Shown: piece by piece, positions 5,932-26,604 of the stretch | Layout: the number at the start of each line of letters is the position of its first letter | Position numbering within the stretch: position 1 is the stretch's first letter | Assembly: GCA_964534665.1 (NCBI GenBank) | Contig: CAZHRT010000010.1 | Span: 1 to 32,000 of the forward strand | DNA from: an uncultured Methanosarcinales archaeon | GTDB lineage: Archaea; Nanobdellota; Nanobdellia; Woesearchaeales; JAHJBD01 | Direction of reading: 5' to 3' | Length of the DNA stretch: 32,000 nt | Translations under genes and position numbers: made by a program | Notes under the pieces: model-generated | The model's database searches: none | What the model saw: only the letters and a program-made list of their open reading frames with translations | What the model was told of the DNA's origin: nothing

Positions 5932-5932
5932 A

Positions 5933-6680: not shown

Positions 6681-6744
6681 GATTTATGTAAACACACACT
6701 TGTTTTTAAAGTTTTTGAAAAAAGATATAAATGAGTAGATATTA

Positions 6745-9812: not shown

Positions 9813-10313
9813 ATGAAAACAATAGACGAACTTAAGAATGAAAAAGGAGAATTAGATATGAATGCGATTAAGCAGATTATTCCATATGAACATCCATTTT
9901 TAATGATTGATAAAGTAATTAGTGTTGATAAAAATAAGATAGTGGCAATAAAGAATGTTTCAGCTTCTGATGAATTCTTAAAAGGTCATTTTGCTGGATT
10001 TCCCATTATGCCGGGTGCATTAATGGTAGAAGGTATGGGGCAAGCAGCTACTTTGCTTATTAGATATAATCTTGAAGAACATTTCAAGAAAGATGTTCTA
10101 GCATTTAAAATAAAAGATGCTAAATTCACTGCACCAGCTTTTGCAGGTGATCAACTAGAGTATGAAGTTGTATTAATGGGCCAAGACGAAAGAGGTGCTT
10201 TAGTACAAGCTAAAGCTAAGAAAGAAGGAAATGTAATAGCTGAAGCTGGAATGATGCTTGCTGTTGTTGACAAAAAAGAATTTAGATCTCAACATAGTCC
10301 TGTTTATAAGTGA
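9813..10313 (+). CDS. fabZ: FabZ-like (R)-3-hydroxyacyl-thioester dehydratase (hotdog fold)
   Basis: 166 aa. IPYEHPFLMIDKV...KNVSASDEFLKGHFAGFPIMPGALMVEGMGQAA matches the FabZ catalytic His/Glu block (lPHRyPFLlvDrv...GHFP..PimPGvl.iEa.aQ). Confidence 0.85.
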   Translation: MKTIDELKNEKGELDMNAIKQIIPYEHPFLMIDKVISVDKNKIVAIKNVSASDEFLKGHFAGFPIMPGALMVEGMGQAATLLIRYNLEEHFKKDVLAFKIKDAKFTAPAFAGDQLEYEVVLMGQDERGALVQAKAKKEGNVIAEAGMMLAVVDKKEFRSQHSPVYK

Positions 10314-10318
10314 TTTAA

Positions 10319-12566: not shown

Positions 12567-12569
12567 AAT

Positions 12570-13622: not shown

Positions 13623-13642
13623 CGATTATAATACATTAAAAG
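13610..13642 (+). repeat. Left copy of the duplicated korA/korB junction (relic korB start)
   Basis: AAATGGAATGTAA (13610-13622) matches AAATGAAGTGTAA (15751-15763) at 11 of 13 positions. ACATTAAAAG (13633-13642) is identical to 15765-15774. Read from the ATG at 13612, it encodes MECNDYNTLK, compared with the real KorB N-terminus MKCKTLK. Confidence 0.55.
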
Positions 13643-13649
13643 TATATAG

Positions 13650-14606
13650 GTGTATACTGTGGTAATAGCACTAGTAACTGGTGGGGCAGGATTTATTGGG
13701 AGCCATTTAGTAGAAGATTTAGTTGAGAAAGGATATCAAGTAAAAGTTATTGATAGTTTAATTAAAGGTAAAAGTGCAACAATTCAAAAGTTAATTGATC
13801 AAGGTAAAGTTGAATTTTTTGAAGGAGATATAAAAAATAGGGATAGTGTTGATAAAGCTATGAAGAATGTAGATTATGTTTTTCATACTGCAGGTACACA
13901 TATAATTAATTGTGGTAAAAGTCCGGAAGATGCAATTGAGTGTAATGTTCATGGAAGTTACAATGTGTTCAAATCTGCATTAGATAATAATGTTAAAAGG
14001 GTAATTTTTAGTTCAAGTTCAAGCATATATGGGGAACCAAAAAGTTTACCTATGTCTGAAGATAGTGAACTGAATATTGTAGAACCCTATGCTGCAAGCA
14101 AACAAATGGCTGAACATCTATTGAAATTTTTGGGAACTAAAGGATTGAAATATAATATATTAAGATATTTTAATGTTTATGGCTCAAGACAAGCTGTGCA
14201 TGCTTACTATACAACTGTCGTGATAGATTTTATTAATAAATTGATGAATGATGAATCACCAATTATTAACGGAAAAGGTGATCAAAGTCTAGACTTTACA
14301 CATGTAAGTGATGTTGTAAAAGGAAATATAGCTGCAGCTGAATCTACGGTTGAGAATGAAATATTTAATATTGGAACTGGACAAAGTACATCTATTGCTG
14401 ATCTTGCAAAAATGATTATCAAAACTTTAGGTAAAGATATTGAACCCAGATTTAGGGATAGAAAAGTTTTGGTAACAAGAAAAAAAGCTGACACAATTAA
14501 AGCTGAAAAAATACTTGGATTTAAATCTCAAGTTTCTATTGAAGAAGGTATAGCAAAAATTACTAAAGAAATTGCTGAGAATCCTGAATTATATAAAGGT
14601 AGATAA
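13650..14606 (+). CDS. NAD-dependent nucleotide-sugar epimerase/dehydratase (extended SDR)
   Basis: 318 aa with TGGAGFIGSHL and the YAASK catalytic pair. The start may instead be the GTG at 13659, in which case the GGTG spanning 13649-13652 would serve as its RBS. Confidence 0.85.
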   Translation: MYTVVIALVTGGAGFIGSHLVEDLVEKGYQVKVIDSLIKGKSATIQKLIDQGKVEFFEGDIKNRDSVDKAMKNVDYVFHTAGTHIINCGKSPEDAIECNVHGSYNVFKSALDNNVKRVIFSSSSSIYGEPKSLPMSEDSELNIVEPYAASKQMAEHLLKFLGTKGLKYNILRYFNVYGSRQAVHAYYTTVVIDFINKLMNDESPIINGKGDQSLDFTHVSDVVKGNIAAAESTVENEIFNIGTGQSTSIADLAKMIIKTLGKDIEPRFRDRKVLVTRKKADTIKAEKILGFKSQVSIEEGIAKITKEIAENPELYKGR

Positions 14607-14608
14607 GA

Positions 14609-15763
14609 ATGCTAGAAATAAATGATAAGATATGGAAAATTCCTTTATTCCAAACGTATTGGGATGAAAATGATGTTGAAGCTATTAATGAAGTAGTTAG
14701 AAGGGGGAGCTCCTGGGCAACTGGACCTGAGGTTGTCGAGTTTGAAAAAAAAATCGCTGAATTTAATGAAAGAAAATATGCTTTGGCTTTTAATTCTGGA
14801 ACAAGTGCTTTGCATGCAATGTTGCTTGCATATGATGTTAAAGGTAAAGAAGTAATTGTACCCTCATTTACTTTTATTGCTACGGCAAATGCAGTTGTAT
14901 TAGCTGGTGGAAAGCCAATTTTTGCTGAATCTGAAGATGAAACATTTGGATTAGATGCAGAAGATGTTTTATCTAGAATAAATAAAAATACTGCTGCAAT
15001 CTTAACTTTAAACTATGGTGGAGGAGTTTCAAAAGATATTGAAAAATTAAAGCAGATTGCTGATGAGAAAAACATATTATTACTAGAAGACAATGCACAT
15101 TCTTTTGGTGTAAAGAAAAATGGTAAAATGTGTGGAACATTTGGGCAAGCAGCTGCATTAAGCTTTTGTCAGAATAAACTAATAACTACTGGTGAAGGTG
15201 GTGCTGTGGTTACAGATGATGAAAAAATATTTGAAAAAATTAAGTTGATTAAAAGCCATGGAAGAATTAAAAATTCTAAAGAAGATTTTTCATCAATTAA
15301 AAATTATGGGTATGTGGAAGTGGGTTATAATTATAAGATACCTACAATGGGGGCGGCTTTAGGACTCTCACAACTTAATAAATTTGAAAAAATAATGAAT
15401 TTAAGAATTGAAGCTGGAACAAGATTAAATGATGGGATAAAAGAATTTGTTAAAGTATCTGAACCTTATGAAAATTCTGACCACTTTTTTCAAAAATATA
15501 CTATTATGCTTAATAATAATGAAACCAGAGATAAACTACAATTATTTTTAAGAGATAAAGGCATAATGAGTAAAGTTTACTATGAACCTATCCATCTAGA
15601 AAATATTTATAGAGATAATTATGGTTATAAAGAAGGGGATTTGCCTAAAACAGAAGCAATGTCTAAGAAAATCCTTACCTTGCCTATGTGGCCAGGTATT
15701 TCAAATAATGATATAGATTATATAATTAATTCAATCAAGGAGTTTTTTAAAAATGAAGTGTAA
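14609..15763 (+). CDS. DegT/DnrJ/EryC1-family PLP-dependent sugar aminotransferase
   Basis: 384 aa with NSGTSALHAMLLA, DNAHSFG and SFCQNKLITTGEGG (PLP lysine context). Its last 11 nt overlap the korB start. Confidence 0.85.
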   Translation: MLEINDKIWKIPLFQTYWDENDVEAINEVVRRGSSWATGPEVVEFEKKIAEFNERKYALAFNSGTSALHAMLLAYDVKGKEVIVPSFTFIATANAVVLAGGKPIFAESEDETFGLDAEDVLSRINKNTAAILTLNYGGGVSKDIEKLKQIADEKNILLLEDNAHSFGVKKNGKMCGTFGQAAALSFCQNKLITTGEGGAVVTDDEKIFEKIKLIKSHGRIKNSKEDFSSIKNYGYVEVGYNYKIPTMGAALGLSQLNKFEKIMNLRIEAGTRLNDGIKEFVKVSEPYENSDHFFQKYTIMLNNNETRDKLQLFLRDKGIMSKVYYEPIHLENIYRDNYGYKEGDLPKTEAMSKKILTLPMWPGISNNDIDYIINSIKEFFKNEV

Positions 15764-15774
15764 GACATTAAAAG
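15751..15774 (+). repeat. Right copy of the duplicated korA/korB junction (functional korB start)
   Basis: See the left copy at 13610-13642. The DegT C-terminus (KNEV-stop) mirrors the KorA C-terminus (LNGM-stop) at the nucleotide level. Confidence 0.55.
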
Positions 15775-16481
15775 ATGATGGGATGCATTATTGTCCTGGT
15801 TGTGGGCATACTCAAGTGCATAGAATGATTGCTGATCTAATTGATGAATTAGGTATCCGAGAAAAAACTATTGCTTCTGCACCAGTTGGTTGTGCAGTAT
15901 TATTTTATAATTATTTTAATGTTGATGTTATTGAATGTGCACATGGTCGTGTTCCTGCTGTCATGGGCGCTATAAAAAAAGTTAATCCTGATAAGTTTGT
16001 TTTATGTTACCAAGGGGATGGTGATTTAGCGGCAATTGGTACAACTGAAACAATACATACTGCTAACCGTGGAGAAAACTTAACTGTTATTTTTATCAAT
16101 AATGCAATTTATGGTATGACTGGTGGTCAAATGGCACCTACAACTTTACCAGGACAAATTACAACTACAACACCAAAAGGAAGAGGGAATAATAATGAAG
16201 GATTACCTCTTAAGGTTTGTGAATTATTAAGCGTACTTGGAGGTCCAACATACATTGAAAGATGTGCAGTAAATAGTGCTGAGAATATGAAGAAAACTAA
16301 AGAAGCCATCAAAAAAGCAATTCAATGCCAATTAGAAGGTAAAGGTTATAGTTTTATAGAGATATTGTCTGGCTGTCCAACCAACTGGAAAGTTAGTGTA
16401 AAAGATTCTATTGGCTTTATTGATAAGATGATTGAATATTTCCCATTAGGTGTTTTCAAGGATGTAAGAAATGAGAGATGA
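15753..16481 (+). CDS. 2-oxoacid:ferredoxin oxidoreductase, beta (TPP-binding) subunit
   Basis: 242 aa with YCPGCGH and YQGDGDLAAIGTTETIHTANRGENLTVIFINNAIYGMTGGQ (TPP/Mg site). Confidence 0.9.
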   Translation: MKCKTLKDDGMHYCPGCGHTQVHRMIADLIDELGIREKTIASAPVGCAVLFYNYFNVDVIECAHGRVPAVMGAIKKVNPDKFVLCYQGDGDLAAIGTTETIHTANRGENLTVIFINNAIYGMTGGQMAPTTLPGQITTTTPKGRGNNNEGLPLKVCELLSVLGGPTYIERCAVNSAENMKKTKEAIKKAIQCQLEGKGYSFIEILSGCPTNWKVSVKDSIGFIDKMIEYFPLGVFKDVRNER

Positions 16482-17001
16482 AATTAAGATAGCAGGTTAT
16501 GGTGGACAAGGGGTTGTCTTAGCTGGAAGTTTGATAGCTAACACTGCAATGCGTCAAGGATTGTATACTTGCGGCATGGTATCTTATGGTGCTGAAATGA
16601 GGGGAGGAACAGCAAACTCAACTGTAATAGTAAGTGATAAACCAATAAGTAGCCCAATTGTTATAATGCCAAATGTTGTATTAATATTAAATGAACCTTC
16701 TCTTAAGAAATTTGAAGAGAGTGTAGAAAAAGGTGGTGTTATAATTATTAATACATCAGAATGTAAGAAAAAAGTTTCTAGACAAGATATTGAAATTGTT
16801 GAGGTTGCTGCAACAGATGCTGCAGTAGAACTGGGAAATAAGAAAGTTACAAATATGGTCATGGTTGGAGCATATATTAAGAAAAAAGGTTCAATAAGAT
16901 TAGAAGAAGCCATAAAGAATCTAGATGTTGTAATCAAGAGAAAAGAATTGATTGATATTAATAAAAAAGCTTTGGAAAAAGGTGGGGAATTATGTATGTA
17001 A
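16471..17001 (+). CDS. 2-oxoacid:ferredoxin oxidoreductase, gamma subunit
   Basis: 176 aa. IKIAGYGGQGVVLAGSLIA is typical of the gamma subunit/domain. It overlaps korB by 11 nt and the next thiolase by 10 nt. No delta (2x[4Fe-4S]) subunit gene is present in the window. Confidence 0.85.
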   Translation: MRDEIKIAGYGGQGVVLAGSLIANTAMRQGLYTCGMVSYGAEMRGGTANSTVIVSDKPISSPIVIMPNVVLILNEPSLKKFEESVEKGGVIIINTSECKKKVSRQDIEIVEVAATDAAVELGNKKVTNMVMVGAYIKKKGSIRLEEAIKNLDVVIKRKELIDINKKALEKGGELCM

Positions 17002-18128
17002 AAGGTGTTGGTTGTACACCATATAGGATTCATGAGAAAAAATCACATATGTTAGCTTATGATGCGATTAGTCAAGCCTTAAAAGATGCTGATACGTCTT
17101 TAGATAAGATTGATGGTATTGTTTGTAGTACGTTAGAATGGTTTTTTACTGAGGAAAATCAAAGACATTTTGCTGCAATGCTTTCTGGTTTGTTAAAAAC
17201 TAATAAACCAATAATAAGGGTGCCTGCTGCTTGTGCTGGAGGGGGAACAGCCTTATGGACAGCTAATAAAATGGGATTTGATAATGTATTGGTTGTTGGT
17301 GTTGAAAAACTACATGGACATACAAGAAATACTGATATGATTACAAAAGAATTTGGTATGGCTGCTGAATCTAAATGGGAGCAAACTGAAGGTGTTAATT
17401 TTCCTGGAGAAAATGCTTTAGTTGCACAAGCATACCTTAACAAATTTCCCGAAACAACTATGAATGATCTTGCTTTGATATCGTTAAAGAATCATGAAAA
17501 TGCTTTTTTAAATCCTAATGCTTATTTTTATGGGAAAAAAGTTAACTTGGATCAAATTAAGAATTCACCAATAATAACTTCGCCATTAAGATTATTTGAT
17601 TGTAGTGTAAGTGTTGATGGGGCTGCAGCTGTTGTTTTATCTAAAGATAAAACAGATGTTAAAATTGCAGGGTCATCATTATGTTCTGATTACCTTCCGC
17701 CTTTTGAAAGGGATGATATGACAACATGGGAAGGAACATTAAGAACTGGCAATGAAGTTTTTGAGCAAACAGGTTTAGAAAGAAGTGAGATTGATTTTGC
17801 TGAATTACATGATGCTTTTACAATAGTTGAACTATTAACATACGAAGATCTTGGTTTTTGTAAGAAAGGGGAAGCGTATAAAATGATTAGGGATGGTAGA
17901 TTTAAGATTGATGGAAAGATGCCTGTAAATGTTTCTGGTGGATTAAAAGCTAAAGGGCATCCTGTTTCTGCAACTGGTCTTGGAATGATATATGAGATTG
18001 TTAAACAAATACGTGGTGAATCTGGTGATAGACAAATTAGTAAAACTAGAAATGCGCTTGCCCATAATATTGGTGGAGCAGGTGGTACAACCGCCGTACA
18101 CATACTAAAGAAAATTGGAGGGGTTTAA
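16992..18128 (+). CDS. Thiolase-fold acyl-CoA C-acyltransferase, paralogue 2
   Basis: 378 aa, roughly 55-60% identical by eye to the protein at 10319-11443. Shared blocks include IIRVPAACAGGGTALWTAN, NHENAF, YGKKV, LRLFDCSVSVDGAAAVVLSKDKTDVKIAGS, YEDLGFCKKGE and SGGLKAKGHP. No DUF35 partner is adjacent. Confidence 0.85.
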   Translation: MYVKGVGCTPYRIHEKKSHMLAYDAISQALKDADTSLDKIDGIVCSTLEWFFTEENQRHFAAMLSGLLKTNKPIIRVPAACAGGGTALWTANKMGFDNVLVVGVEKLHGHTRNTDMITKEFGMAAESKWEQTEGVNFPGENALVAQAYLNKFPETTMNDLALISLKNHENAFLNPNAYFYGKKVNLDQIKNSPIITSPLRLFDCSVSVDGAAAVVLSKDKTDVKIAGSSLCSDYLPPFERDDMTTWEGTLRTGNEVFEQTGLERSEIDFAELHDAFTIVELLTYEDLGFCKKGEAYKMIRDGRFKIDGKMPVNVSGGLKAKGHPVSATGLGMIYEIVKQIRGESGDRQISKTRNALAHNIGGAGGTTAVHILKKIGGV

Positions 18129-18875
18129 ATGGAAGACTTAAAAGGTAAAACTGCATTAATAACTGGTGGTTCTCAAGGTATAGGTAAAGCTATTGCTATA
18201 GCAATGGCAAAAGAGGGTGCTAATATTATTATCAATGATATTGAACCTGCAAAAGAAGGGGCTGAAGCAACAGTTGCTGAATTAAAAGAATTTGGTGTTG
18301 ATGCTATGGCAGCTTATGCAGATGTTTCAGATTTTGAACAAGTTAAATCTATGGTTGAACAAATTAAAGAAAAATTCCCAGTAATTAATGTATTGGTAAA
18401 TAATGCAGGAATAACTAAAGATAGAACATTAAAAAAGATGACTCCTGAAGAATGGAATGCTGTAATAAATGTTAATCTTAATTCAATCTATAATGTAACG
18501 CATAATGTTTTGGGGCTTATACCTGAAGGTGGTTCGATTATATCTTTATCTTCTATTGCTGGAGTTGGAGGAAATTTTGGACAGTGCAATTATGCATCAA
18601 CTAAAGCCGGGATTATTGGATTTACAAAGTCTCTTGCAAAAGAGTTAGGAAAAATGAAGATTACTGTTAATGCGATTGCCCCAGGATTTATCAAAAGTAA
18701 GATGACTGATAAAATCCCTGTAATGATGCTTGATCAAATATTGGACTTAATACCTTCAAAAGAGATGGGACAGCCTGAAGATGTTGCTAATTTAGCAGTG
18801 TTTTTGGCATCTAATAAGGGTAAATATGTAAATTCTCAAGTAATCAGAGTAGATGGCGGCATGATGTTTGGTTGA
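18129..18875 (+). CDS. fabG: 3-oxoacyl-thioester reductase, classical SDR (FabG / PhaB acetoacetyl-CoA reductase type)
   Basis: 248 aa with TGGSQGIGKAIA, NNAGIT and S...YASTKAG. The segment KKMTPEEWNAVINVNLNSIYNVTHNV resembles CoA-dependent PhaB at least as much as ACP-dependent FabG. Confidence 0.9.
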   Translation: MEDLKGKTALITGGSQGIGKAIAIAMAKEGANIIINDIEPAKEGAEATVAELKEFGVDAMAAYADVSDFEQVKSMVEQIKEKFPVINVLVNNAGITKDRTLKKMTPEEWNAVINVNLNSIYNVTHNVLGLIPEGGSIISLSSIAGVGGNFGQCNYASTKAGIIGFTKSLAKELGKMKITVNAIAPGFIKSKMTDKIPVMMLDQILDLIPSKEMGQPEDVANLAVFLASNKGKYVNSQVIRVDGGMMFG

Positions 18876-18927
18876 GTACAATAAACTTTAAATAGGGTTT
18901 TTATTTACCTTCTTTAGGGGATATAAC

Positions 18928-20082
18928 TTGGATTTTAATTATACTAAAAAACAATTAATGCTTTACCACACTATTAGGAATTTTGTAGAGAAAGAAATTA
19001 TTCCTTATGCTCAAGATATTGATCATGAAGAAATATTTCCAATCGAACAAATTAAGAAATTAGCTAAGATGGGCGTTATGGGGATGTCTATACCTAAAAA
19101 GTATGGTGGGGCTGAACTTGATAATGTTTCTCAAACTATAATTATGGAAGAAGTTAGTCGTGCTTGTGCTTCAACTTCTGTTACAATGGGGGCACATACT
19201 TCTTTATGTTGTTATCCAATTGTAAATCATGGTACTAATGCTCAAAAAGAAAGGTGGTTACCTAAACTTGCTTCAGGCGAGTGGTTAGGTGCTTTTGCGC
19301 TTACAGAACCAAATGCTGGTTCTGATGCTGTTAATGTACAAACAACTGCTGTTAGAGATGGAGACGATTACATAATTAATGGTAACAAAGTTTTTATTAC
19401 AAATGGTGGAAAATGTGATTTTGTTCCAATTGTTTGTACAACTGATCCTTCTGCTAAACATAAGGGATTAGCTATTTTTGGGATTGAAACAAAAAATACT
19501 CCAGGATTTAAAGTTGGGAAGAAAGAGGATAAGCTGGGTTTAAGAGGTTCAAATACTTGTGAACTTGTGTTTGAAGATATGCGTGTTCCAAAAGAAAATT
19601 TAGTTAGTGGTAAAGAAGGCGAAGGCTTTAAGATTTCTATGGGTGTATTTAATTCTGGAAGGATTGGAATTGGAGTACAGGGTGTTGGAATTGCACAAGC
19701 AGCATTTGATGAATGTATGAAATATGTTAGTGAAAGAGAACAGTTTGGAAGGCCTTTAAAGAAATTTCAAGCTATACAGTTTCAGATGGCTGAAATGGCA
19801 ACTAAAATTGAAGCTGCTCGTTTATTATGTTTGAAAGCTGCACATGTAAAAGATCAAGGTAAAAATTATATCAAACATGCTGCAATGGCTAAATATTATG
19901 GAAGCGATGTTTCAATGGAAGTTACAAGACAAGCTATACAAATACATGGTGGTTATGGTTATATGAAAGATTATCCATTAGAAAGATTTTACAGAGATGC
20001 AAAGATTACTGAGATTTATGAAGGTACAACAGAAATCCAAAAATTAGTTATTGGAAATGAATTGTTTGGGAGAGGTTTTTAA
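18928..20082 (+). CDS. Acyl-CoA dehydrogenase (short-chain/butyryl-CoA dehydrogenase-like)
   Basis: 384 aa with GAFALTEPNAGSDA, ITNG and IYEGTTEIQ. It uses a TTG start with GGGGA 7 nt upstream. Confidence 0.9.
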   Translation: MDFNYTKKQLMLYHTIRNFVEKEIIPYAQDIDHEEIFPIEQIKKLAKMGVMGMSIPKKYGGAELDNVSQTIIMEEVSRACASTSVTMGAHTSLCCYPIVNHGTNAQKERWLPKLASGEWLGAFALTEPNAGSDAVNVQTTAVRDGDDYIINGNKVFITNGGKCDFVPIVCTTDPSAKHKGLAIFGIETKNTPGFKVGKKEDKLGLRGSNTCELVFEDMRVPKENLVSGKEGEGFKISMGVFNSGRIGIGVQGVGIAQAAFDECMKYVSEREQFGRPLKKFQAIQFQMAEMATKIEAARLLCLKAAHVKDQGKNYIKHAAMAKYYGSDVSMEVTRQAIQIHGGYGYMKDYPLERFYRDAKITEIYEGTTEIQKLVIGNELFGRGF

Positions 20083-20085
20083 TGA

Positions 20086-20131
20086 CTCAAAAATTCTTTT
20101 TTGAGGGATTGGAAATCACCAAAGGTGATTT
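20086..20131 (+). promoter_or_regulatory. Two consecutive stem-loops in the 52-nt acd-etfB spacer; the second covers the etfB RBS
   Basis: CTCAAAAA-TTCT-TTTTTGAG (20086-20105) begins 4 nt after the acd stop. AAATCACC-AAA-GGTGATTT (20113-20131) follows, and its GGTGA lies 6 nt upstream of the etfB ATG at 20135. Confidence 0.4.
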
Positions 20132-20134
20132 TCA

Positions 20135-20917
20135 ATGAACATCATTGTTTGTGTAAAACAAGTACCTGATACAAATGATATTAAGATTGATCCTGTTAAA
20201 GGGACTTTAATTAGAGAGGGAGTTCCATCAATTATCAATCCAGAAGATAATAATGCTATTGAGGCGGCTTTGCAAATAAAAGGTGAAGGTAAAGTTACTG
20301 TTCTTTCAATGGGGCCACCACAAGCTGAAGAAGCTTTAAGGGAAGCTATTGCAATGGGTGTTGATGAAGCTATTCTTGTCTCAGATTTTAAGTTTGCTGG
20401 TTCTGATACATGGGCAACTGCAAATGTATTGGCAAGTGCTGTTAAGAAATTAGACTATGACCTAATAATTTGTGGAAGGCAAGCAATTGATGGGGATACT
20501 GCACAAGTGGGTCCCCAATTAGCTGAAAATTTGGGTTTACCACAAATCACTTATGTTCAAAAAATTGAAGTTGGAGAGGGTGTATTAAAAGTTCAAAGAG
20601 CTCTTGAAGATGGATATGAAATAATAGAAGGAAAGTTGCCTGTTTTAATAACCGTAGTAAAAGAAATTAACAATCCAAGATATCCAACATTACAAGGAAT
20701 TGATAAAGCTTATGAAACTGATATTATTAAATGGACAGCAGATGATATTGAAGCAGATCCTGCAAAAATTGGACTTAAAGGTTCTCCAACACATGTAAAA
20801 AAGAGTTTTGTTCCTCCTGGAAAAGGCCAAGGAATAAAATTAGATGGACCTACTAAAGATATTGCAAAACAATTAATTGGAATCTTAAAAGAAAAAGAGA
20901 TTATCCAAGAATTTTAA
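20135..20917 (+). CDS. etfB: Electron-transfer flavoprotein, beta/small subunit (bifurcating-type signature)
   Basis: 260 aa with MNIIVCVKQVPD and GRQAIDGDTAQVGPQLAENLGLPQITYV. Confidence 0.9.
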   Translation: MNIIVCVKQVPDTNDIKIDPVKGTLIREGVPSIINPEDNNAIEAALQIKGEGKVTVLSMGPPQAEEALREAIAMGVDEAILVSDFKFAGSDTWATANVLASAVKKLDYDLIICGRQAIDGDTAQVGPQLAENLGLPQITYVQKIEVGEGVLKVQRALEDGYEIIEGKLPVLITVVKEINNPRYPTLQGIDKAYETDIIKWTADDIEADPAKIGLKGSPTHVKKSFVPPGKGQGIKLDGPTKDIAKQLIGILKEKEIIQEF

Positions 20918-20918
20918 A

Positions 20919-22088
20919 ATGGTAAAAATAAAATTAACTGATAATTATCCTGGATCAACACTTACAATAGATGGTGTTATGCTTAGTTTAGGAGATGATT
21001 TTGTTGATGTTGAGAAATCATTAGATTTACAGCAAGCACTTAATAATGGTTATGTTGAAATTCAAGAAGAAAAAGAAGAGAATAAAGTTGAGGAAGTAAA
21101 AGAAGGTGAAGAAGTTTGGATTTTTGCAGAACAGCGTGCAGGAAAATTTGCTAGAGTTGCACTTGAGCTTTTAGGAAAAGCACGTGAGTTAGCAGATCAT
21201 CAAGGTGTTAAAGTTGGTGCTTTGTTATTATGTGATAAAGATTGCGGATTATCCTCAGAATTAATTTCTAGGGGTGCAGATAAAGTTTATCTAGCTGAAT
21301 CTGAGAAATTTAAGAATTATGAAACTTTAAATTTTACTAAAACTATTTGTGAAATTATAAATAAAGAAAAACCTCAAATTGTAATATATGGTGCAACACA
21401 TATTGGTAGAGATTTAGCACCAAGAATTGCTCAAAGGATTGCAACTGGTTTAACTGCTGATTGTACTGGTTTAAACATTGATGAAGATGGTTTATTGATA
21501 CAAACAAGGCCTGCTTTTGGTGGGAACTTAATGGCTGAAATTAAATGTCCTGAACATAAACCTCAAATGTCTACTGTAAGACCAGGTATTATGAAAATGC
21601 TTGACAAGACAGAAAGAGAAGGTTCTGTTGTTAAATGTGAAATTTCACTTGAGGAAGATGATAGAATCAAAGTTTTAGAAGTAATTAAAGAAACTAGGAA
21701 AGTTGCTAATCTTGAAGAAGCTGAAATAATTGTGTCTGGTGGACGAGGTGTTGGAAGTCCTGAAAATTTTAAACTTATTGAAGAGTTAGCAAAAGAGTTG
21801 GGTGCTGAGATTGGAGCGTCACGTGCAGTTATTGATGCTGGTTGGGTTCCAAAAGATCATCAAGTTGGACAAACAGGTAAAACAGTAACACCAAAATTAT
21901 ATTTGGCTTGTGGAATTTCTGGTGCTATTCAGCATAGGGCTGGAATGCAAAATTCTGATACAATTGTTGCTATTAATAAAGATCCTAATGCGATGATTTT
22001 TTCTGTTGCTGATTATGGCATTGTTGGTGATTTAAACAAGGTTATTCCGGCTTTAATTGAAGAGCTTAAGAATGGCAAAACTTTATAA
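20919..22088 (+). CDS. etfA: Electron-transfer flavoprotein, alpha/large subunit with a ~65-aa Cys-free N-terminal extension
   Basis: 389 aa. The canonical EtfA begins at VWIFAEQRAGKFARVALELLGKAREL. The C-terminal FAD domain shows SGGRGVGS, ASRAVIDAGW and QVGQTGKTVTPKLYLACGISGAIQH. Confidence 0.9.
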   Translation: MVKIKLTDNYPGSTLTIDGVMLSLGDDFVDVEKSLDLQQALNNGYVEIQEEKEENKVEEVKEGEEVWIFAEQRAGKFARVALELLGKARELADHQGVKVGALLLCDKDCGLSSELISRGADKVYLAESEKFKNYETLNFTKTICEIINKEKPQIVIYGATHIGRDLAPRIAQRIATGLTADCTGLNIDEDGLLIQTRPAFGGNLMAEIKCPEHKPQMSTVRPGIMKMLDKTEREGSVVKCEISLEEDDRIKVLEVIKETRKVANLEEAEIIVSGGRGVGSPENFKLIEELAKELGAEIGASRAVIDAGWVPKDHQVGQTGKTVTPKLYLACGISGAIQHRAGMQNSDTIVAINKDPNAMIFSVADYGIVGDLNKVIPALIEELKNGKTL

Positions 22089-22113
22089 GTGCTATTAGTT
22101 CTAAATAGATAAT

Positions 22114-22755
22114 ATGAAACCAAGTTTTGTTACAAAATTAAGTATACGGCTTGCCAAACTATGGGTAAGAAATATCTCTGGTCTAGAGAATATTCCAGAT
22201 AATGGCAAGTTTATAATCGCAGCAAACCATTCTAGTTTTTTAGATGATTTTCTAATGCCTGGAATTGCAATACTAAAAATAAAAAAACTTGTACATATGT
22301 ATTGTAATGATAGGTTCTATAAAAATAAAATCTTTGCAGCATATCTAAATTCTTCTCAGTGCATACCCATTTCAATACAGACAAAGAATAAAGATACTAA
22401 CAAAAAAGCTTTTGAAACAGCATTAAATCATCTTAAAAACAACGAACCAATAGGCATCTTCCCAGAAGGTGGCCGTTCTAAGAATGGTGAACTTAAGGAA
22501 GCAAGAACAGGAATTGCAAAACTTGCATTAACAGCAAAAGTTCCTATATTACCTATTGGACTCGCAGGTTCATATGATGTATTTCCTAGGAATGTAAAAT
22601 TTCCAAAATTTAAACGATGTGAGATAAAAATAGGTAAGCCAATTTACTTGGATAAATATTATGAAGAATCAGATAACCAGAAAGTTCTTAAAGATATAAC
22701 TACAAAAATAATGAAAGAAATAGCTAAATTAACCGGACAGGAGTATAATTATTAA
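22114..22755 (+). CDS. PlsC-family (LPLAT) glycerol-phosphate/lysophosphatidate acyltransferase, paralogue 1
   Basis: 213 aa with the H-x4-D motif in AANHSSFLDDF, FPEGGRS and VPILPIGL. Confidence 0.8.
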   Translation: MKPSFVTKLSIRLAKLWVRNISGLENIPDNGKFIIAANHSSFLDDFLMPGIAILKIKKLVHMYCNDRFYKNKIFAAYLNSSQCIPISIQTKNKDTNKKAFETALNHLKNNEPIGIFPEGGRSKNGELKEARTGIAKLALTAKVPILPIGLAGSYDVFPRNVKFPKFKRCEIKIGKPIYLDKYYEESDNQKVLKDITTKIMKEIAKLTGQEYNY

Positions 22756-22756
22756 A

Positions 22757-23389
22757 ATGGTATATTTAATTTCAAAAAAGATTATATCTGGAATAATGAA
22801 GTTCTGGACAAAAGAAGTTATTGGATTAGAAAATCTTCCAAAAAAAAAGTTTGGGTTCATTGTAGCTGCTAATCATGGAAGTTATTTAGATCATTTTTTT
22901 ATTGGAACTATTATAACACCTAAACTTAATAGGGCAATACATTTTTTAGCTAAAAAAGAGCACTTTGATAGTTTTATACAAAGAAAATGGCATAATTACC
23001 TTCAAGCTATTCCAATTGATAGGCAGGCTGGTGGTAAAGAAGCGTTAAAACATGCTATTGATGCATTGCAAGAAGGCAAAATCATCTCAATTTATCCAGA
23101 AGGAACAATAACATTAACAGGAAAAATTCAAGAAGGTAAAACCGGTGTTGCTAGGTTAGCTATTGCTGCTAAAGTTCCTGTTTTACCAATTGGAATAAAT
23201 GGATCATTTGAAATACTACCAAAAGGTAAATGGATACCTAAATTTAAAAGAGCAACAATTAAAATAGGAAAATTAATGTATTTTGATAAATATTATGGGA
23301 AAGATGAAGATAGAAAAGTTACAAGAGAAGTAACGGATAATATTATGAAAGAAATAGGAAAGTTAGCAGGAAAGAGGTATAAAGAATGA
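22757..23389 (+). CDS. PlsC-family (LPLAT) acyltransferase, paralogue 2
   Basis: 210 aa with the H-x4-D motif in AANHGSYLDHF, YPEGTIT and VPVLPIGI. It starts 1 nt after paralogue 1 and is about 40% identical to it by eye. Confidence 0.8.
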   Translation: MVYLISKKIISGIMKFWTKEVIGLENLPKKKFGFIVAANHGSYLDHFFIGTIITPKLNRAIHFLAKKEHFDSFIQRKWHNYLQAIPIDRQAGGKEALKHAIDALQEGKIISIYPEGTITLTGKIQEGKTGVARLAIAAKVPVLPIGINGSFEILPKGKWIPKFKRATIKIGKLMYFDKYYGKDEDRKVTREVTDNIMKEIGKLAGKRYKE

Positions 23390-24357
23390 TTGCTGTAATT
23401 GGTGCTGGGTCTTGGGGAACAACACTTGCTAGAATTCTAGCTTTGAATGGGCATTCGGTAAAGTTGTGGGTTAGAGAAAAAGAATTATTTGATATTCTAG
23501 AAAAAGAAAAAGAGAATACTTGGTTTTTAAAAGGTATTAAATTACCAAATAATATTACTTTTGTTAATGATTTTAAAAAAGTTAATGGTTGTGAATATGT
23601 TGTTACTGCCATACCTTGTCAATATGTTCGTGGTGTATTAACTAAGTTCGCACCTTTTATATCTAAGAATGCAAAAATAATTAATGTTGCAAAAGGAATT
23701 GAACAAGGAACTTTCAAAAGGATTTCTTCAATAATAAAAGAGATTTTACCAAATAAGATTGTTGCTGTTATGTCTGGACCTAATCATGCTGAAGAAGTAA
23801 GTAAAGAATTGCCAACTGCAACAGTAATTGCACATAAAGACAAAAGTGTTTGTGAAGAATTTTGTAAGTTATTTGCAACATCCAATTTTAAAGTTTATCC
23901 ACATGATGATATTATTGGTGTGGAAGTATGTGCGGCTGTAAAAAATATTACTGCAATTGCAACTGGTGTTGTTGCAGGGATTGGTTTTGGTGATAATGCG
24001 ATGGGTGCAATAATGACTTATGGATTAATGGAAATGAATACTGTTGCAAAATTCTTAGGTGGAAAACAAAAAACAATCTATGGTCTTGCAGGGGTTGGTG
24101 ATTTAATTGCAACTTGTAGTTCTAAACATAGTAGAAATAGGTTTACTGGTCAAAAGATTGCAGAAGGCAAAAGTTATGATGAAATCTACAAAGAAATGGG
24201 TGGCATGGTAGCTGAAGGTGTCCATACTGCTAAAGCTGTTCATGAATTTGCTATTAAGAATGAACTTAACTTACCATTAACTACTCAAACATACAAAGTA
24301 TTATTTGAAAATAAAAATTTAAAAGAAGCAGTATCAGATTTAAAAAATCTGATATGA
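23386..24357 (+). CDS. gpsA: NAD(P)H-dependent sn-glycerol-3-phosphate dehydrogenase
   Basis: 323 aa with IAVIGAGSWGTTLA, NVAKGIE, SGPNHAEEV, AAVKNITAIATG and GLAGVGDLIATCSSKHSRNRFTGQKIAEG. It aligns closely by eye with E. coli GpsA along its whole length. There is a 4-nt overlap with plsC paralogue 2. Confidence 0.9.
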   Translation: MIAVIGAGSWGTTLARILALNGHSVKLWVREKELFDILEKEKENTWFLKGIKLPNNITFVNDFKKVNGCEYVVTAIPCQYVRGVLTKFAPFISKNAKIINVAKGIEQGTFKRISSIIKEILPNKIVAVMSGPNHAEEVSKELPTATVIAHKDKSVCEEFCKLFATSNFKVYPHDDIIGVEVCAAVKNITAIATGVVAGIGFGDNAMGAIMTYGLMEMNTVAKFLGGKQKTIYGLAGVGDLIATCSSKHSRNRFTGQKIAEGKSYDEIYKEMGGMVAEGVHTAKAVHEFAIKNELNLPLTTQTYKVLFENKNLKEAVSDLKNLI

Positions 24358-24358
24358 A

Positions 24359-26595: not shown

Positions 26596-26604
26596 AAATA
26601 CCAC

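What the first reader, a model, noticed from the sequence alone, without database searches (positions are those of the whole stretch)
18928..22088. Acyl-CoA dehydrogenase with a bifurcating-type EtfBA, a candidate enoyl-CoA reductase step
Seen: acd, etfB and etfA are contiguous. EtfB carries GRQAIDGDTAQVGPQLAE.

Established knowledge (from memory): the DGDTAQVGP-type loop is characteristic of Etf small subunits that bind a second FAD and bifurcate electrons. The clostridial Bcd/EtfAB reducing crotonyl-CoA with NADH is the example I have in mind. Canonical AMP-binding ETFs differ at this position (human ETFB has DDDCNQTG).

Inference: the complex may run in the enoyl-CoA-reducing direction and be coupled to ferredoxin. 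That would replace FabI-type enoyl reductases and link to the OFOR in the same cluster.
Basis: partly seen in the sequence, partly recalled or inferred. Interest (0 to 1): 0.65.

Follow-up and report, generated by a model that had tools for sequence, protein, structure and literature searches.

The report
Bifurcating-type enoyl-CoA reductase, archaeal lipid operon
A tiny marine archaeon (Woesearchaeota, DPANN) carries a clostridial-type butyryl-CoA dehydrogenase with a two-flavin electron-transfer flavoprotein, and because these genes sit in a conserved operon between fatty-acyl chain-building genes and bacterial-type glycerolipid genes, the complex most likely saturates growing fatty-acyl chains rather than breaking down fat.

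Summary

All three proteins match solved electron-bifurcating complexes best (C. difficile Bcd-EtfAB, A. woodii CarCDE). They score 2-3 times higher against these than against canonical AMP-type ETFs. EtfB has the Gly and Thr residues that accommodate a second FAD.

The motif marks a two-FAD Etf, not bifurcation as such. The reportedly non-bifurcating acryloyl-CoA reductase Etf of Anaerotignum propionicum has the same motif. It also has a 23-residue insertion in its large subunit, which the window's EtfA lacks.

The host is a Woesearchaeote. In 8 of 8 diverged relatives the order acd-etfB-etfA-acyltransferase-acyltransferase-gpsA is kept, usually preceded by fabZ, thiolases and fabG and next to acetyl-CoA carboxylase genes. 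None of about 78 bacterial acd loci shows this linkage. A reductive, enoyl-CoA-reductase role in CoA-linked fatty-acid synthesis is therefore the best reading. Ferredoxin coupling is plausible but unproven.

The proposed OFOR link is weak. Chain length could not be inferred. EtfA carries a conserved cysteine-free N-terminal domain where sister lineages have a 2x[4Fe-4S] domain. Huang et al. 2021 had noted these genes but read them differently.

The parts
18928..20082 (+). Acd: Bcd-type acyl-CoA dehydrogenase / enoyl-CoA reductase (384 aa, TTG start). The catalytic Glu365 lies in IYEGT at nt 20014-20028.
   Evidence: Pfam finds the three ACAD domains. The best PDB match is 5ol2_C, the C. difficile Bcd of the bifurcating complex (439 bits, 55% identity), against 298 bits and 38% identity for MCAD. 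IYEGT was confirmed by translation and is conserved in 8 of 8 relatives.
20135..20917 (+). EtfB: small subunit of a group-2, two-FAD-type Etf (260 aa).
   Evidence: Pfam ETF at E 1e-51. PDB scores: CarD 6fah_B 292 bits, 5ol2_B 281, 7koe_A 213, 4kpu_B 212, 7qh2_B 205 (all bifurcating), against human and Paracoccus ETFB at 96-98 bits.
20399..20419 (+). EtfB motif GSDTWAT (residues 89-95). Thr92 and Thr95 correspond to the Thr pair that hydrogen-bonds the ribose of the bifurcating FAD.
   Evidence: Confirmed by translation. Alignment A2 shows that canonical ETFs have RLGPLQV or DIEPLAV here. T94/T97 of R. palustris ETF are needed for the Bf-FAD (PMC8958531).
20474..20527 (+). EtfB peptide GRQAIDGDTAQVGPQLAE (residues 114-131). 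Gly120 corresponds to Gly123 of A. fermentans EtfB.
   Evidence: Confirmed by translation. This Gly is invariant in bifurcating ETFs. It is Phe in the canonical F. nucleatum ETF and Asp/Asn in the human and Paracoccus proteins (PMC12630350; A2).
20919..21062 (+). EtfA N-terminal cysteine-free mini-domain (residues 1-48). It occupies the position of the CarE-type 2x[4Fe-4S] ferredoxin domain.
   Evidence: Alignment A1 shows that L007 and L087 have 8 Cys here while the window has none and an 11-aa deletion. The domain is conserved in 85 of 99 close EtfA homologues. AF2 gives pLDDT 93 for the domain alone. There is no Pfam hit and no significant PDB fold match.
21063..21113 (+). Acidic, Lys/Glu-rich linker of EtfA (residues 49-65).
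   Evidence: AF2 pLDDT is about 35 for residues 50-59.
21114..22088 (+). EtfA core: ETF domain I (residues 66-241) and the alpha-FAD-binding domain II (PF00766, residues 264-344).
   Evidence: Pfam. PDB scores: CarE 6fah_A 374 bits and 5ol2_A 337 bits, against human ETFA at 179 bits. Foldseek's top hits are 5ol2_A, 4kpu_A, 7koe_B and 6fah_A. The core lacks the 23-aa insertion of A. propionicum AcrA.
9813..18875 (+). Upstream half of the same operon. Genes: FabZ-type dehydratase (9813), thiolase-like 1 (10319), Zn-ribbon/OB + DUF362 (11436), OFOR alpha (12570), inserted epimerase (13650) and DegT aminotransferase (14609), OFOR beta (15753), OFOR gamma (16471), thiolase-like 2 (16992), FabG-type ketoreductase (18129).
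   Evidence: Pfam. NCBIfam: FabZ NF000582 scores 119.6 against a cutoff of 113, and the FabG subfamily model NF009466 scores 254.6 against 222. The same order is found in L007, L091, L092 and L094, without the epimerase and DegT genes.
22114..24357 (+). Downstream half of the operon: two LPLAT/PlsC-family acyltransferases (22114-22755, 22757-23389; both with HX4D) and the bacterial-type NAD-dependent G3P dehydrogenase GpsA (23386-24357).
   Evidence: Pfam PF01553 twice, and PF01210/PF07479/PF20618. These genes directly follow etfA in 8 of 8 Woesearchaeal lineages.
4408..9668 (.). Adjacent acyl-CoA carboxylase set: carboxyltransferase (4408-5931 +), BCCP (5933-6313 +), 4HBT thioesterase (6745-7137 +), biotin ligase (7127-7792 -), biotin carboxylase (7779-9668 -, divergent from fabZ).
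   Evidence: Pfam. Biotin carboxylase lies divergent from fabZ also in L007, L091, L093 and L094, and probably L092.

Best explanation
The three genes encode a clostridial-type Bcd-EtfAB complex. It consists of an FAD-containing acyl-CoA dehydrogenase and an Etf that binds two FADs: alpha-FAD on EtfA domain II and a second, NADH-reactive beta-FAD on EtfB in place of AMP.

In this Woesearchaeote the complex is the enoyl-thioester reductase of a CoA-linked fatty-acyl elongation cycle encoded by the same operon:
1. Thiolase-type condensation.
2. FabG-type ketoreduction.
3. FabZ-type dehydration.
4. Acd/EtfBA reduction of trans-2-enoyl-CoA.

The acyl-CoA products are handed to two PlsC-family acyltransferases, which acylate the sn-glycerol-3-phosphate made by GpsA.

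Proposed electron path: NADH gives a hydride to beta-FAD. One electron goes via the swinging alpha-FAD to the Acd FAD and then to enoyl-CoA. The other, low-potential electron most likely goes to a free ferredoxin or flavodoxin (flavin-based electron bifurcation: 2 NADH + 2 Fd(ox) + enoyl-CoA -> 2 NAD+ + 2 Fd(red) + acyl-CoA).

Shown here: gene identity, two-FAD-type sequence features, and conserved operon architecture.
Inferred: direction, role in lipid synthesis, ferredoxin coupling, chain length.

My sub-probabilities are: two-FAD Etf about 0.9; reductive or anabolic role about 0.65; ferredoxin-coupled given that role about 0.65.
For: Family assignment:
- All three subunits match solved bifurcating complexes best. 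EtfB scores 292/281/213/212/205 bits against them and 88-98 bits against canonical ETFs. EtfA scores 374/337/323/322 against 179. Acd scores 439 bits against 5ol2_C. Foldseek gives the same ranking.
- The beta-FAD site features are present: Gly120 (Afe Gly123; PMC12630350), Thr92/Thr95 (PMC8958531) and N-terminal KQVPDT (A2). They are conserved in 8 of 8 relatives.
- The window's EtfA lacks the 23-aa large-subunit insertion seen in the non-bifurcating A. propionicum Etf (PMC9232219).
- Two sister lineages (L007, L087) carry a CarE-like 8-Cys ferredoxin domain on EtfA. Such a domain is known only from bifurcating or confurcating Etfs.

Context:
- acd-etfB-etfA-LPLAT-LPLAT-gpsA is conserved in 8 of 8 lineages whose EtfB identity to the window is 61-70% where reported. 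It is preceded by fabZ-thl-DUF362-(OFOR)-thl-fabG in 6 of 8, next to acetyl-CoA carboxylase genes.
- None of about 78 bacterial acd loci has gpsA or plsC nearby.
- The FabG and FabZ types are the (R)-specific biosynthetic ones, not FadB-type.
- No other enoyl reductase, no ACP, no acyl-CoA synthetase and no ETF-QO/FixCX is in the window.
- The host clade is reported as an anaerobic fermenter without a respiratory chain, with [FeFe] hydrogenase and Rnf available to reoxidise ferredoxin, and without GGGPS/DGGGPS (PMC8421398).
Against: - The closest characterised and curated relatives act on C3-C4 substrates (Bcd, SCAD, acryloyl-CoA reductase). The Acd has the Bcd/SCAD-type one-residue-longer helix-E segment. 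Nothing shows that it accepts the C12-C18 enoyl-CoAs needed for membrane lipids.
- The diagnostic EtfB motifs also occur in the reportedly non-bifurcating A. propionicum enzyme.
- The window's EtfA has lost all Fe-S ligands that sister lineages retain. In Ldh-EtfAB, loss of the cluster abolishes bifurcation, although truncated CarCDE keeps it.
- No ferredoxin, flavodoxin, hydrogenase or Rnf gene is in the window.
- One relative (L087) has four CoA-transferase genes and an NMO/FabK-like gene in the cluster. This fits fermentation, or an alternative enoyl reductase.
- FabZ passes an ACP-dependent equivalog model.
- Synteny among members of one clade may partly reflect shared ancestry rather than function.
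- There are no expression, biochemical or lipid data.
Confidence: 0.5

Rival explanations
1. Fermentative role, as read by Huang et al. 2021. The complex reduces crotonyl-CoA to butyryl-CoA, or other short acyl-CoAs, purely for redox balance and energy conservation. Reduced ferredoxin goes to hydrogenase or Rnf, and the product is released as a short-chain acid by the 4HBT thioesterase or by CoA-transferases. The adjacency to plsC and gpsA is then inherited synteny without functional meaning.
For: - The best matches are butyrate-pathway Bcd-EtfAB enzymes, and the gene order bcd-etfB-etfA is that of clostridial butyrate operons (PMC9751042).
- FabG also scores as acetoacetyl-CoA reductase (253 bits).
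- A 4HBT thioesterase is in the window, and four CoA-transferase genes are in L087.
- The host is predicted to be a fermenter with hydrogenase and Rnf.
Against: - The genes are embedded in a tightly spaced operon that ends in two acyltransferases and GpsA in 8 of 8 lineages, but in 0 of about 78 bacterial loci.
- The neighbouring acyl-CoA carboxylase and biotin ligase genes are not needed for butyrate fermentation.
- There are no phosphotransbutyrylase or butyrate kinase genes.
- FabZ/FabG replace the usual Crt/Hbd.
Confidence: 0.18
2. Same pathway role (enoyl-CoA reductase) but not bifurcating. The two-FAD Etf simply passes both NADH electrons to the Acd, as reported for the acryloyl-CoA reductase-EtfAB of Anaerotignum (Clostridium) propionicum, and no ferredoxin is reduced.
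For: - NCBIfam's closest curated models for all three subunits are AcrC/AcrB/AcrA, although below their cutoffs: 512 against 640, 290 against 475, 385 against 600.
- AcrB carries the same GSDT.AT and DGDTAQVGP motifs.
- The window's EtfA has lost the Fe-S clusters kept by sister lineages, and carries an uncharacterised N-terminal domain that could occlude the ferredoxin site.
- An anabolic pathway does not need energy conservation.
Against: - The 23-aa large-subunit insertion of the A. propionicum enzyme, proposed to block ferredoxin docking, is absent (PMC9232219).
- Similarity to proven bifurcating complexes is higher than to Acr: 50% identity to AcrB against 54-56% to CdEtfB and CarD.
- Clostridial Bcd-EtfAB and truncated CarCDE bifurcate without any Fe-S domain.
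Confidence: 0.15
3. Oxidative role. The Acd dehydrogenates acyl-CoA from scavenged host fatty acids (beta-oxidation). EtfBA runs in reverse (confurcation), combining these electrons with those of reduced ferredoxin, for example from the OFOR, to make NADH.
For: - Bifurcating Etf complexes are reversible in principle; Ldh-EtfAB works in confurcation.
- An OFOR that produces reduced ferredoxin is in the same operon.
- DPANN archaea are thought to scavenge lipids.
Against: - The (R)-specific FabG and FabZ types are biosynthetic.
- There is no acyl-CoA synthetase and no FadB-type enzyme.
- Carboxylase, acyltransferase and GpsA neighbours point to synthesis.
- The OFOR is absent from the cluster in 3 of 8 lineages.
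- Acyl-CoA oxidation to NAD+ is thermodynamically hard for a fermenter.
Confidence: 0.07
4. Canonical one-FAD/AMP ETF that shuttles electrons between the Acd and some other dehydrogenase or a quinone-linked acceptor.
For: A canonical ETF linked to a Bcd is known in F. nucleatum (PMC12630350). Huang et al. 2021 stated that the FAD-binding domain is absent in the Woesearchaeal EtfAB.
Against: - Gly120 is present, not Phe, Asp or Asn, and the Thr pair is present.
- Scores against canonical ETFs are 3 times lower.
- PF00766 (the FAD domain) is clearly present in the window's EtfA and in the Yap2000.bin4.8 EtfA, P0206.
- No ETF-QO, FixCX or partner dehydrogenase is in the window.
- The host lacks a respiratory chain.
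Confidence: 0.03

Closest known systems
Electron-bifurcating butyryl-CoA dehydrogenase-EtfAB of clostridia (C. kluyveri, C. difficile 5OL2, A. fermentans 4KPU/4L1F)
   Same: - Same three subunits in the same gene order (bcd-etfB-etfA).
- 55% identity for Acd, about 53% for EtfB and about 52% for the EtfA core.
- Same catalytic Glu and the same beta-FAD site residues.
- No Fe-S cluster, so ferredoxin would dock directly.
   Different: - The host is an archaeon.
- The operon partners are FabZ/FabG/thiolase-DUF35-like enzymes, acyl-CoA carboxylase, two PlsC-type acyltransferases and GpsA, instead of Thl/Hbd/Crt. This points to an anabolic (lipid) rather than a fermentative setting.
- EtfA has an extra 48-residue cysteine-free N-terminal domain and an acidic linker.
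Caffeyl-CoA reductase CarCDE of Acetobacterium woodii (6FAH)
   Same: It is the best PDB hit for EtfB (292 bits) and EtfA (374 bits). CarE also has an N-terminal extension of about the same length. Sister Woesearchaeal EtfAs (L007, L087) have the same 2x CxxCxxCxxxC ferredoxin domain.
   Different: The window's N-terminal domain has no cysteines and an 11-aa deletion, so it cannot bind [4Fe-4S] clusters. The Acd is closer to Bcd (439 bits) than to CarC (325 bits).
Acryloyl-CoA reductase-EtfAB (AcrCBA) of Anaerotignum/Clostridium propionicum, reported as non-bifurcating despite two FADs
   Same: It provides the closest curated NCBIfam models. It has the same EtfB motifs (GSDT.AT, DGDTAQVGP) and the same gene order.
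   Different: The window's proteins fall below all three Acr equivalog cutoffs. The window lacks the 23-aa insertion in the large subunit and the small insertions in EtfB.
ACP-independent archaeal fatty-acid synthase of Sulfolobus acidocaldarius (ketothiolase/DUF35 + SDR + MaoC dehydratase + MDR enoyl-CoA reductase; bioRxiv 10.1101/2024.07.05.601840)
   Same: The logic is CoA-based. Condensation is thiolase-type, with a Zn-ribbon/OB (DUF35-like) partner and an SDR ketoreductase, and no ACP.
   Different: The dehydratase is FabZ-type, not MaoC. The enoyl reductase is a flavin Acd/EtfBA complex instead of an NADPH-dependent MDR enzyme. The cluster continues into G3P acyltransferases and GpsA.
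Canonical (group 1) ETF with ETF:quinone oxidoreductase in beta-oxidation (human, Paracoccus)
   Same: Same fold and alpha-FAD domain. Partner of an acyl-CoA dehydrogenase.
   Different: Canonical ETFs hold AMP in place of the second FAD, with DDD/DND and no Thr pair. They score 3 times lower. No ETF-QO is present, and the expected direction is the opposite.

Membership tests
Group 2 (two-FAD, bifurcating-type) Etf, Bcd/Car-associated subgroup (Garcia Costas et al. 2017 scheme, as cited in PMC5861303 and PMC9751042) | An EtfB/EtfA pair with ETF domains and the alpha-FAD-binding domain | tested here: met
   Pfam PF01012 in both subunits and PF00766 in EtfA.
Group 2 (two-FAD, bifurcating-type) Etf, Bcd/Car-associated subgroup | A small residue (Gly123, A. 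fermentans numbering) in EtfB that leaves room for the isoalloxazine of the beta-FAD | tested here: met
   Gly120 in DGDTAQVGP. Human has Asp, Paracoccus has Asn, and the canonical F. nucleatum ETF has Phe.
Group 2 (two-FAD, bifurcating-type) Etf, Bcd/Car-associated subgroup | The Thr pair of EtfB that hydrogen-bonds the ribose of the bifurcating FAD (T94/T97 in R. palustris) | tested here: met
   GSDTWAT, with Thr92 and Thr95. Canonical ETFs have no Thr here.
Group 2 (two-FAD, bifurcating-type) Etf, Bcd/Car-associated subgroup | Closer in sequence and fold to experimentally bifurcating Etfs than to canonical ones | tested here: met
   EtfB scores 205-292 bits against bifurcating Etfs and 88-98 bits against canonical ones. 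EtfA scores 246-374 against 136-179. Foldseek gives the same order.
Group 2 (two-FAD, bifurcating-type) Etf, Bcd/Car-associated subgroup | An acd/bcd gene directly upstream of etfB-etfA | tested here: met
   The same order is seen in 28 bacterial loci.
Group 2 (two-FAD, bifurcating-type) Etf, Bcd/Car-associated subgroup | Absence of the insertion associated with the non-bifurcating A. propionicum Etf | tested here: met
   The 23-aa insertion after TADCT.L.ID is present in L056 AcrA and absent in the window. Its functional meaning comes from the literature only.
Group 2 (two-FAD, bifurcating-type) Etf, Bcd/Car-associated subgroup | Two FAD per heterodimer, NADH dehydrogenase activity, and NADH- and enoyl-CoA-dependent ferredoxin reduction | not testable with these tools
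   This needs purified protein.
Butyryl-CoA dehydrogenase (short-chain ACAD) of Bcd-EtfAB complexes | Three-domain ACAD fold with the C-terminal catalytic Glu (IYEGT) | tested here: met
   Glu365 aligns with MCAD Glu376.
Butyryl-CoA dehydrogenase (short-chain ACAD) of Bcd-EtfAB complexes | Specificity for C4 (short-chain) substrates | tested here: inconclusive
   The top PDB hits are Bcd and SCAD. At the MCAD Q95/E99-equivalent positions the window has S/G and CdBcd has G/S, which does not discriminate. Pocket geometry could not be measured.
CarCDE-type Etf with an N-terminal 2x[4Fe-4S] ferredoxin domain on EtfA | Eight Cys in two CxxCxxCxxxC motifs at the EtfA N-terminus | tested here: not met
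   The window's first 75 residues have 0 Cys and no Fer4 Pfam hit. L007 and L087 have 8 Cys and Fer4 hits.
Canonical group 1 ETF (AMP-binding, ETF-QO-linked) | A bulky or acidic residue at the Gly123 position, no Thr pair, and an ETF-QO or respiratory acceptor | tested here: not met
   No ETF-QO was found by Pfam in the window.
FixABCX / EtfABCX (quinone-linked bifurcating Etf) | FixC/FixX (EtfC/EtfX) genes adjacent to the etf genes | tested here: not met
   No such genes occur in the window or in the 8 related loci.
Acryloyl-CoA reductase AcrCBA (NCBIfam equivalogs NF042972/NF042971/NF042970) | A score above the curated equivalog cutoffs | tested here: not met
   512 against 640, 290 against 475 and 385 against 600 for the window. 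The A. propionicum locus L056 passes all three.
Type II FAS enoyl-ACP reductases (FabI/FabK/FabL/FabV) or MDR enoyl-CoA reductase as the reducing step of the cluster | Presence of such a gene in the conserved cluster | tested here: not met
   None is in the window. The only classical SDR (18129-18875) is FabG-type (YxxxK; FabG subfamily model passed). One relative (L087) has an NMO/FabK-like gene.

The most novel reading that the evidence does not exclude
Free-living-type Woesearchaeota (subgroup J) are reported to lack GGGPS/DGGGPS. In this reading they build bacterial-type diacyl-sn-glycerol-3-phosphate membrane lipids de novo from one conserved operon. In that operon a flavin-based electron-bifurcating Bcd-EtfBA, carrying a lineage-specific cluster-free N-terminal EtfA domain, is the enoyl reductase of an ACP-independent fatty-acid synthase. 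This would be the first use of electron bifurcation in anabolic lipid synthesis. It would also be an archaeon sitting on the bacterial side of the lipid divide.
Probability: 0.3. Interest if true: 0.85.

Novelty: new variant of a known kind. Interest (0 to 1): 0.6.

Why it matters
Bcd-EtfAB is the founding example of flavin-based electron bifurcation and has so far been tied to fermentative energy metabolism. Here it is fixed in an operon whose other genes make malonyl- or acyl-CoA, elongate acyl chains and esterify them to glycerol-3-phosphate. The host is a DPANN archaeon said to lack the archaeal ether-lipid enzymes.

If the reading is right, three things follow:
1. It identifies the missing enoyl-reductase step of a CoA-based archaeal fatty-acid pathway.
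2. It shows that bifurcation can recover energy from biosynthesis.
3. It gives a concrete, clonable gene set to test whether some archaea make bacterial-type membranes, which is the lipid-divide question.

The analysis also corrects a published statement that these Woesearchaeal Etfs lack an FAD-binding domain. It further shows that the popular DGDTAQVGP motif marks two-FAD Etfs rather than bifurcation itself.

Tried and rejected
- **Chain length from sequence.** I aligned the Acds with human MCAD (my recalled sequence was verified as 100% identical to 2a1t_A). At the cavity-floor positions Q95/E99 the Woesearchaeal Acds have S(A)/G and C4-specific CdBcd has G/S. The positions therefore do not discriminate, and I dropped the approach.
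- **Sigma-70 promoter and intrinsic-terminator scan of 18000-24500.** It found 36 sites against 29 +/- 5 expected, and 2 terminators against 3 expected. This is uninformative, as expected for an archaeon.
- **Identity of the EtfA N-terminal domain.** Pfam found nothing. phmmer against 1.84 billion representatives gave only a low-complexity repeat protein and a fragment. Foldseek on the full model did not align the domain. Foldseek on the domain alone gave a best hit of YqbF at E 0.25 and no ferredoxin. That the domain is a relic of the ferredoxin domain rests only on position and flanking sequence.
- **Garcia Costas et al. 2017** (the motif definitions) could not be read. I used criteria quoted in PMC12630350, PMC8958531, PMC5861303 and PMC9751042 instead.
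- **OFOR as electron partner.** I considered this and set it aside, because both enzymes reduce ferredoxin in their usual directions and the OFOR is not conserved in the cluster.
- **Aryl-polyene-type cluster.** ApeP/ApeI-like precomputed hits on the FabZ-like protein raised this idea. I rejected it because there is no KS or ACP, and FabZ passes its equivalog cutoff.
- **Contig chimerism.** I rejected this because the same archaeal flanks (aS2, RadA, RPA) occur in independent NCBI, JGI, ENA and Logan assemblies.

Full report
**Observation**

The window (GC about 32%) has a long + strand gene array from 9813 to 24357. At the stated coordinates there are three contiguous ORFs:
- Acd, 18928-20082 (384 aa, TTG start with a GGGG Shine-Dalgarno-like element upstream)
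- EtfB, 20135-20917 (260 aa)
- EtfA, 20919-22088 (389 aa)

Pfam assigns them without ambiguity. The quoted peptide GRQAIDGDTAQVGPQLAE is EtfB residues 114-131. My recalled human ETFB sequence proved 100% identical to PDB 1efv_B, and it reads AIDDDCNQTGQ at the aligned site.

**Host**

The flanking genes are archaeal: aS2 at 24359-24958(-), RadA with an HhH domain at 25540-26604(-), an RPA-like protein and RadB. The identical EtfB occurs on at least 24 metagenome contigs. The closest genome is the Woesearchaeota MAG Yap2000.bin4.8 (L007; Acd 78% identical). That MAG is a member of 'subgroup J' of Huang et al. 2021 (PMC8421398).

In a neighbour-joining tree of 120 EtfB homologues, all sequences named Woesearchaeota or Nanoarchaeota fall in one large clade. 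This clade is separate from the Tissierellia/Clostridia sequences, CarD and C. difficile EtfB (NJ only, no support values). This agrees with the published inference of acquisition from Firmicutes.

**What kind of Etf and Acd**

Against all PDB sequences:
- EtfB scores 292, 281, 213, 212 and 205 bits with the five solved bifurcating or confurcating Etfs (CarD, C. difficile, T. maritima EtfABCX, A. fermentans, A. woodii LctB). It scores 88-98 bits with the human, Paracoccus and Methylophilus ETFs.
- EtfA behaves the same way: 374/337/323/322/246 bits against 136-179.
- Acd's best hit is the Bcd of the C. difficile bifurcating complex (439 bits, 55% identity). MCAD scores 298 bits (38% identity) and LCAD/VLCAD score about 220.
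- An AlphaFold2 model of EtfA (mean pLDDT 83) gives the same ranking by Foldseek.

Three EtfB features that the literature ties to the second (beta, bifurcating) FAD are present:
- Gly120 corresponds to Gly123 of A. fermentans, which is invariant in bifurcating ETFs. It is replaced by Phe in the experimentally canonical F. nucleatum ETF (PMC12630350).
- Thr92 and Thr95 in GSDTWAT correspond to T94/T97 of R. palustris ETF, whose mutation removes the Bf-FAD (PMC8958531).
- The N-terminal KQVPDT is present, where canonical ETFs have KRVIDY (A2).

All are conserved in eight diverged Woesearchaeal homologues. [quoted passage not shown] That statement is not borne out. PF00766 is present in the window's EtfA and in the EtfA of their own MAG (P0206).

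Locus L056 is the acryloyl-CoA reductase locus of Anaerotignum (Clostridium) propionicum. Its three proteins pass the NCBIfam AcrC/AcrB/AcrA equivalog cutoffs. This enzyme has FAD on both Etf subunits yet is reported not to bifurcate (PMC5861303; PMC9232219). Its EtfB carries GSDTFAT and DGDTAQVGP. The motif therefore marks two-FAD Etfs, not bifurcation itself.

The literature attributes the lack of bifurcation to an insertion that would block ferredoxin docking. In my alignment the A. propionicum large subunit has a 23-residue insertion after TADCTHLDID. The insertion is absent from the window's EtfA, from Thermoanaerobacterium EtfA and from the Yap2000 EtfA (A6). The window's proteins also fall below the Acr equivalog cutoffs. 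So the one sequence feature linked to non-bifurcation is absent. This is negative evidence only.

**The EtfA N-terminus**

The window's EtfA has 65 extra N-terminal residues. In L007 and L087 the same position holds a CarE-like ferredoxin domain with two CxxCxxCxxxC motifs (8 Cys; Pfam Fer4). In the window and five other lineages it is a cysteine-poor domain (0-1 Cys) with an 11-residue deletion.

This domain is not decaying. It is conserved in 85 of 99 close EtfA homologues, with the consensus mvKVKls.ncPe..L.lGGivl.kG.df.d.pd..E.qqAIdnGylE. It is predicted with pLDDT 93 as four beta-strands, a helix and a fifth strand. It has no Pfam family, no sequence relatives outside these EtfAs and no significant PDB fold match.

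Published work shows that CarCDE keeps bifurcation when its ferredoxin domain is removed, whereas Ldh-EtfAB loses it. The consequence for the window's enzyme is therefore open. The presence of the Fe-S domain in sister lineages does argue that the ancestral Woesearchaeal complex talked to ferredoxin.

**Context and direction**

The operon reads as follows:
1. FabZ (passes the FabZ equivalog cutoff)
2. Thiolase-like 1
3. A Zn-ribbon/OB (weakly DUF35-like) + DUF362 fusion
4. OFOR alpha
5. [epimerase, DegT aminotransferase]
6. OFOR beta, OFOR gamma
7. Thiolase-like 2
8. FabG (passes a FabG subfamily cutoff)
9. Acd, EtfB, EtfA
10. Two PlsC/LPLAT acyltransferases with HX4D
11. GpsA

Divergently upstream lie biotin carboxylase, biotin ligase, a 4HBT thioesterase, BCCP and carboxyltransferase. 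The intergenic gaps from thiolase 2 to gpsA range from a 4-nt overlap to 52 nt.

I examined eight lineages whose EtfB identity to the window is 61-70% where reported: the window, L007, L087, L089 and L091-L094.
- The block acd-etfB-etfA-LPLAT-LPLAT-gpsA next to aS2 is present in all eight.
- The fabZ-thiolase-DUF362-...-thiolase-fabG block precedes it in six.
- None of about 78 bacterial acd loci fetched in the same scan has a gpsA or plsC homologue within 10 kb.

No ACP, KAS, FabI/K/L/V, MDR enoyl reductase, acyl-CoA synthetase, FadB-type enzyme, ETF-QO or FixCX is encoded in the window. The host clade is described as anaerobic and fermentative, lacking respiratory complexes, having [FeFe] hydrogenase and Rnf, and lacking GGGPS/DGGGPS. 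Other authors have reported FabG/FabZ/'FabI' and cyclopropane-fatty-acid synthase genes in marine Woesearchaeota MAGs (PMC10936187).

Taken together, the simplest reading is as follows. Acd/EtfBA supplies the fourth step (enoyl-CoA reduction) of a CoA-linked elongation cycle. Its products are esterified to G3P. This resembles the ACP-independent archaeal FAS of Sulfolobus, but with a flavin-based reductase in place of the MDR enzyme.

**The OFOR link**

The OFOR genes are real. However, they are split in the window by an epimerase and a DegT gene that relatives lack. They are also missing from the cluster in L087, L089 and L093. In their usual directions both the OFOR and a bifurcating Bcd-Etf reduce ferredoxin. 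They would therefore share a pool rather than form a redox couple. The OFOR more plausibly supplies acyl-CoA primers.

**Weak points**

- Everything about direction, ferredoxin coupling and chain length is inferred.
- The nearest characterised enzymes act on C3-C4 substrates.
- My attempt to read chain length from the MCAD Q95/E99 positions failed, because C4-specific CdBcd also has small residues there.
- L087 carries four CoA-transferase genes and an NMO/FabK-like gene in the cluster. This keeps a fermentative reading, or an alternative reductase, alive.
- Synteny within one clade may overstate functional coupling.

I therefore give about 0.5 to the full best explanation. The components are: two-FAD Etf about 0.9; reductive or anabolic role about 0.65; ferredoxin coupling given that role about 0.65. 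The rivals are listed separately.

**Novelty**

The presence of Bcd-EtfAB in subgroup-J Woesearchaeota is published. There it was interpreted as fermentative redox balancing and judged unlikely to bifurcate. I found no paper that links it to the plsC/gpsA/fabZ/fabG operon, or that describes the cysteine-free EtfA domain.

The enzyme itself is a new member of a well-known kind. The fixed anabolic operon context and the lineage-specific EtfA domain make it a new variant. The larger implication, an archaeon making bacterial-type lipids with a bifurcating enoyl reductase, is the most novel reading not excluded. I put its probability at about 0.3.

Noticed in passing
window 20919-21113; homologues P0124-P0242; L007:11943-13136; L087:10790-11983: EtfA carries a conserved cysteine-free N-terminal mini-domain of about 48 aa plus an acidic linker. 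AF2 gives pLDDT 93, and there is no Pfam or PDB match. It is present in 85 of 99 close homologues. A minority (8 of 99, including L007 and L087) instead have a CarE-like 8-Cys 2x[4Fe-4S] domain at the same place.
   Followed up: yes
window 22114-24357 (and the same genes in L007, L087, L089, L091-L094): Two PlsC/LPLAT acyltransferases and a bacterial-type GpsA lie in an archaeal genome, next to aS2, in every lineage checked. Huang et al. [quoted passage not shown] They did not mention these genes.
   Followed up: partly
window 11436-12566: This is a fusion protein. It has an N-terminal CxxC...CxxC zinc ribbon plus an OB-like segment, weakly similar to a DUF35/OB_ChsH2_C protein of L087 (BLASTP E 6e-6 over 39 aa). 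This is joined to a DUF362 domain. It always sits directly after thiolase-like 1 and, where present, before OFOR alpha. It may be a scaffold for the condensing enzyme.
   Followed up: partly
window 13650-15763: An NAD-dependent epimerase/dehydratase gene and a DegT/DnrJ-type aminotransferase gene are inserted between the OFOR alpha and beta genes. Relatives (L007, L091, L092, L094) have alpha-beta-gamma contiguous, so this is a lineage-specific insertion of sugar-modification genes into the operon.
   Followed up: partly
window 4408-9668: A complete biotin-dependent acyl-CoA carboxylase set lies beside the lipid operon: carboxyltransferase, a 126-aa BCCP, and a 629-aa biotin carboxylase with an extra N-terminal stretch of about 130 aa. 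With it are a biotin ligase and a 4HBT thioesterase. The thiolase-like condensing enzymes might therefore use malonyl-CoA.
   Followed up: no
L007:9002-9958, L087:7897-8805, L089:7850-8761: A conserved ORF of 302-318 aa with no Pfam family sits directly upstream of acd in three relatives. It is absent from the window, where fabG is followed by acd after 52 nt.
   Followed up: partly
L087:2925-6917 and 15025-16155: In one relative the cluster also holds four CoA-transferase genes and an NMO/FabK-like gene (a possible alternative enoyl reductase). A bacterial DXP reductoisomerase (MEP pathway) lies between gpsA and aS2.
   Followed up: no
window 18876-18927 and 20083-20134: The gap before acd contains TTTAAATA, a TATA-box-like element about 40 nt upstream of the TTG start. 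The gap after acd contains an inverted repeat and T-run (CAAAAAttcTTTTTTG). These could be an internal archaeal promoter and a partial terminator that set the Acd:Etf stoichiometry.
   Followed up: no
L056 (Anaerotignum propionicum) 10001-13090: The reportedly non-bifurcating acryloyl-CoA reductase Etf carries the same 'bifurcating' EtfB motifs. It differs by a 23-aa insertion in the large subunit and by small insertions in EtfB. It is a useful negative control for motif-based calls of bifurcation.
   Followed up: yes
window 28669-31074 (-) and 31065-31730 (-): A large 801-aa ORF and an overlapping 221-aa ORF have no Pfam match. Homologous genes are present at the same place in relatives (about 799 aa in L001 and L002).
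   Followed up: no
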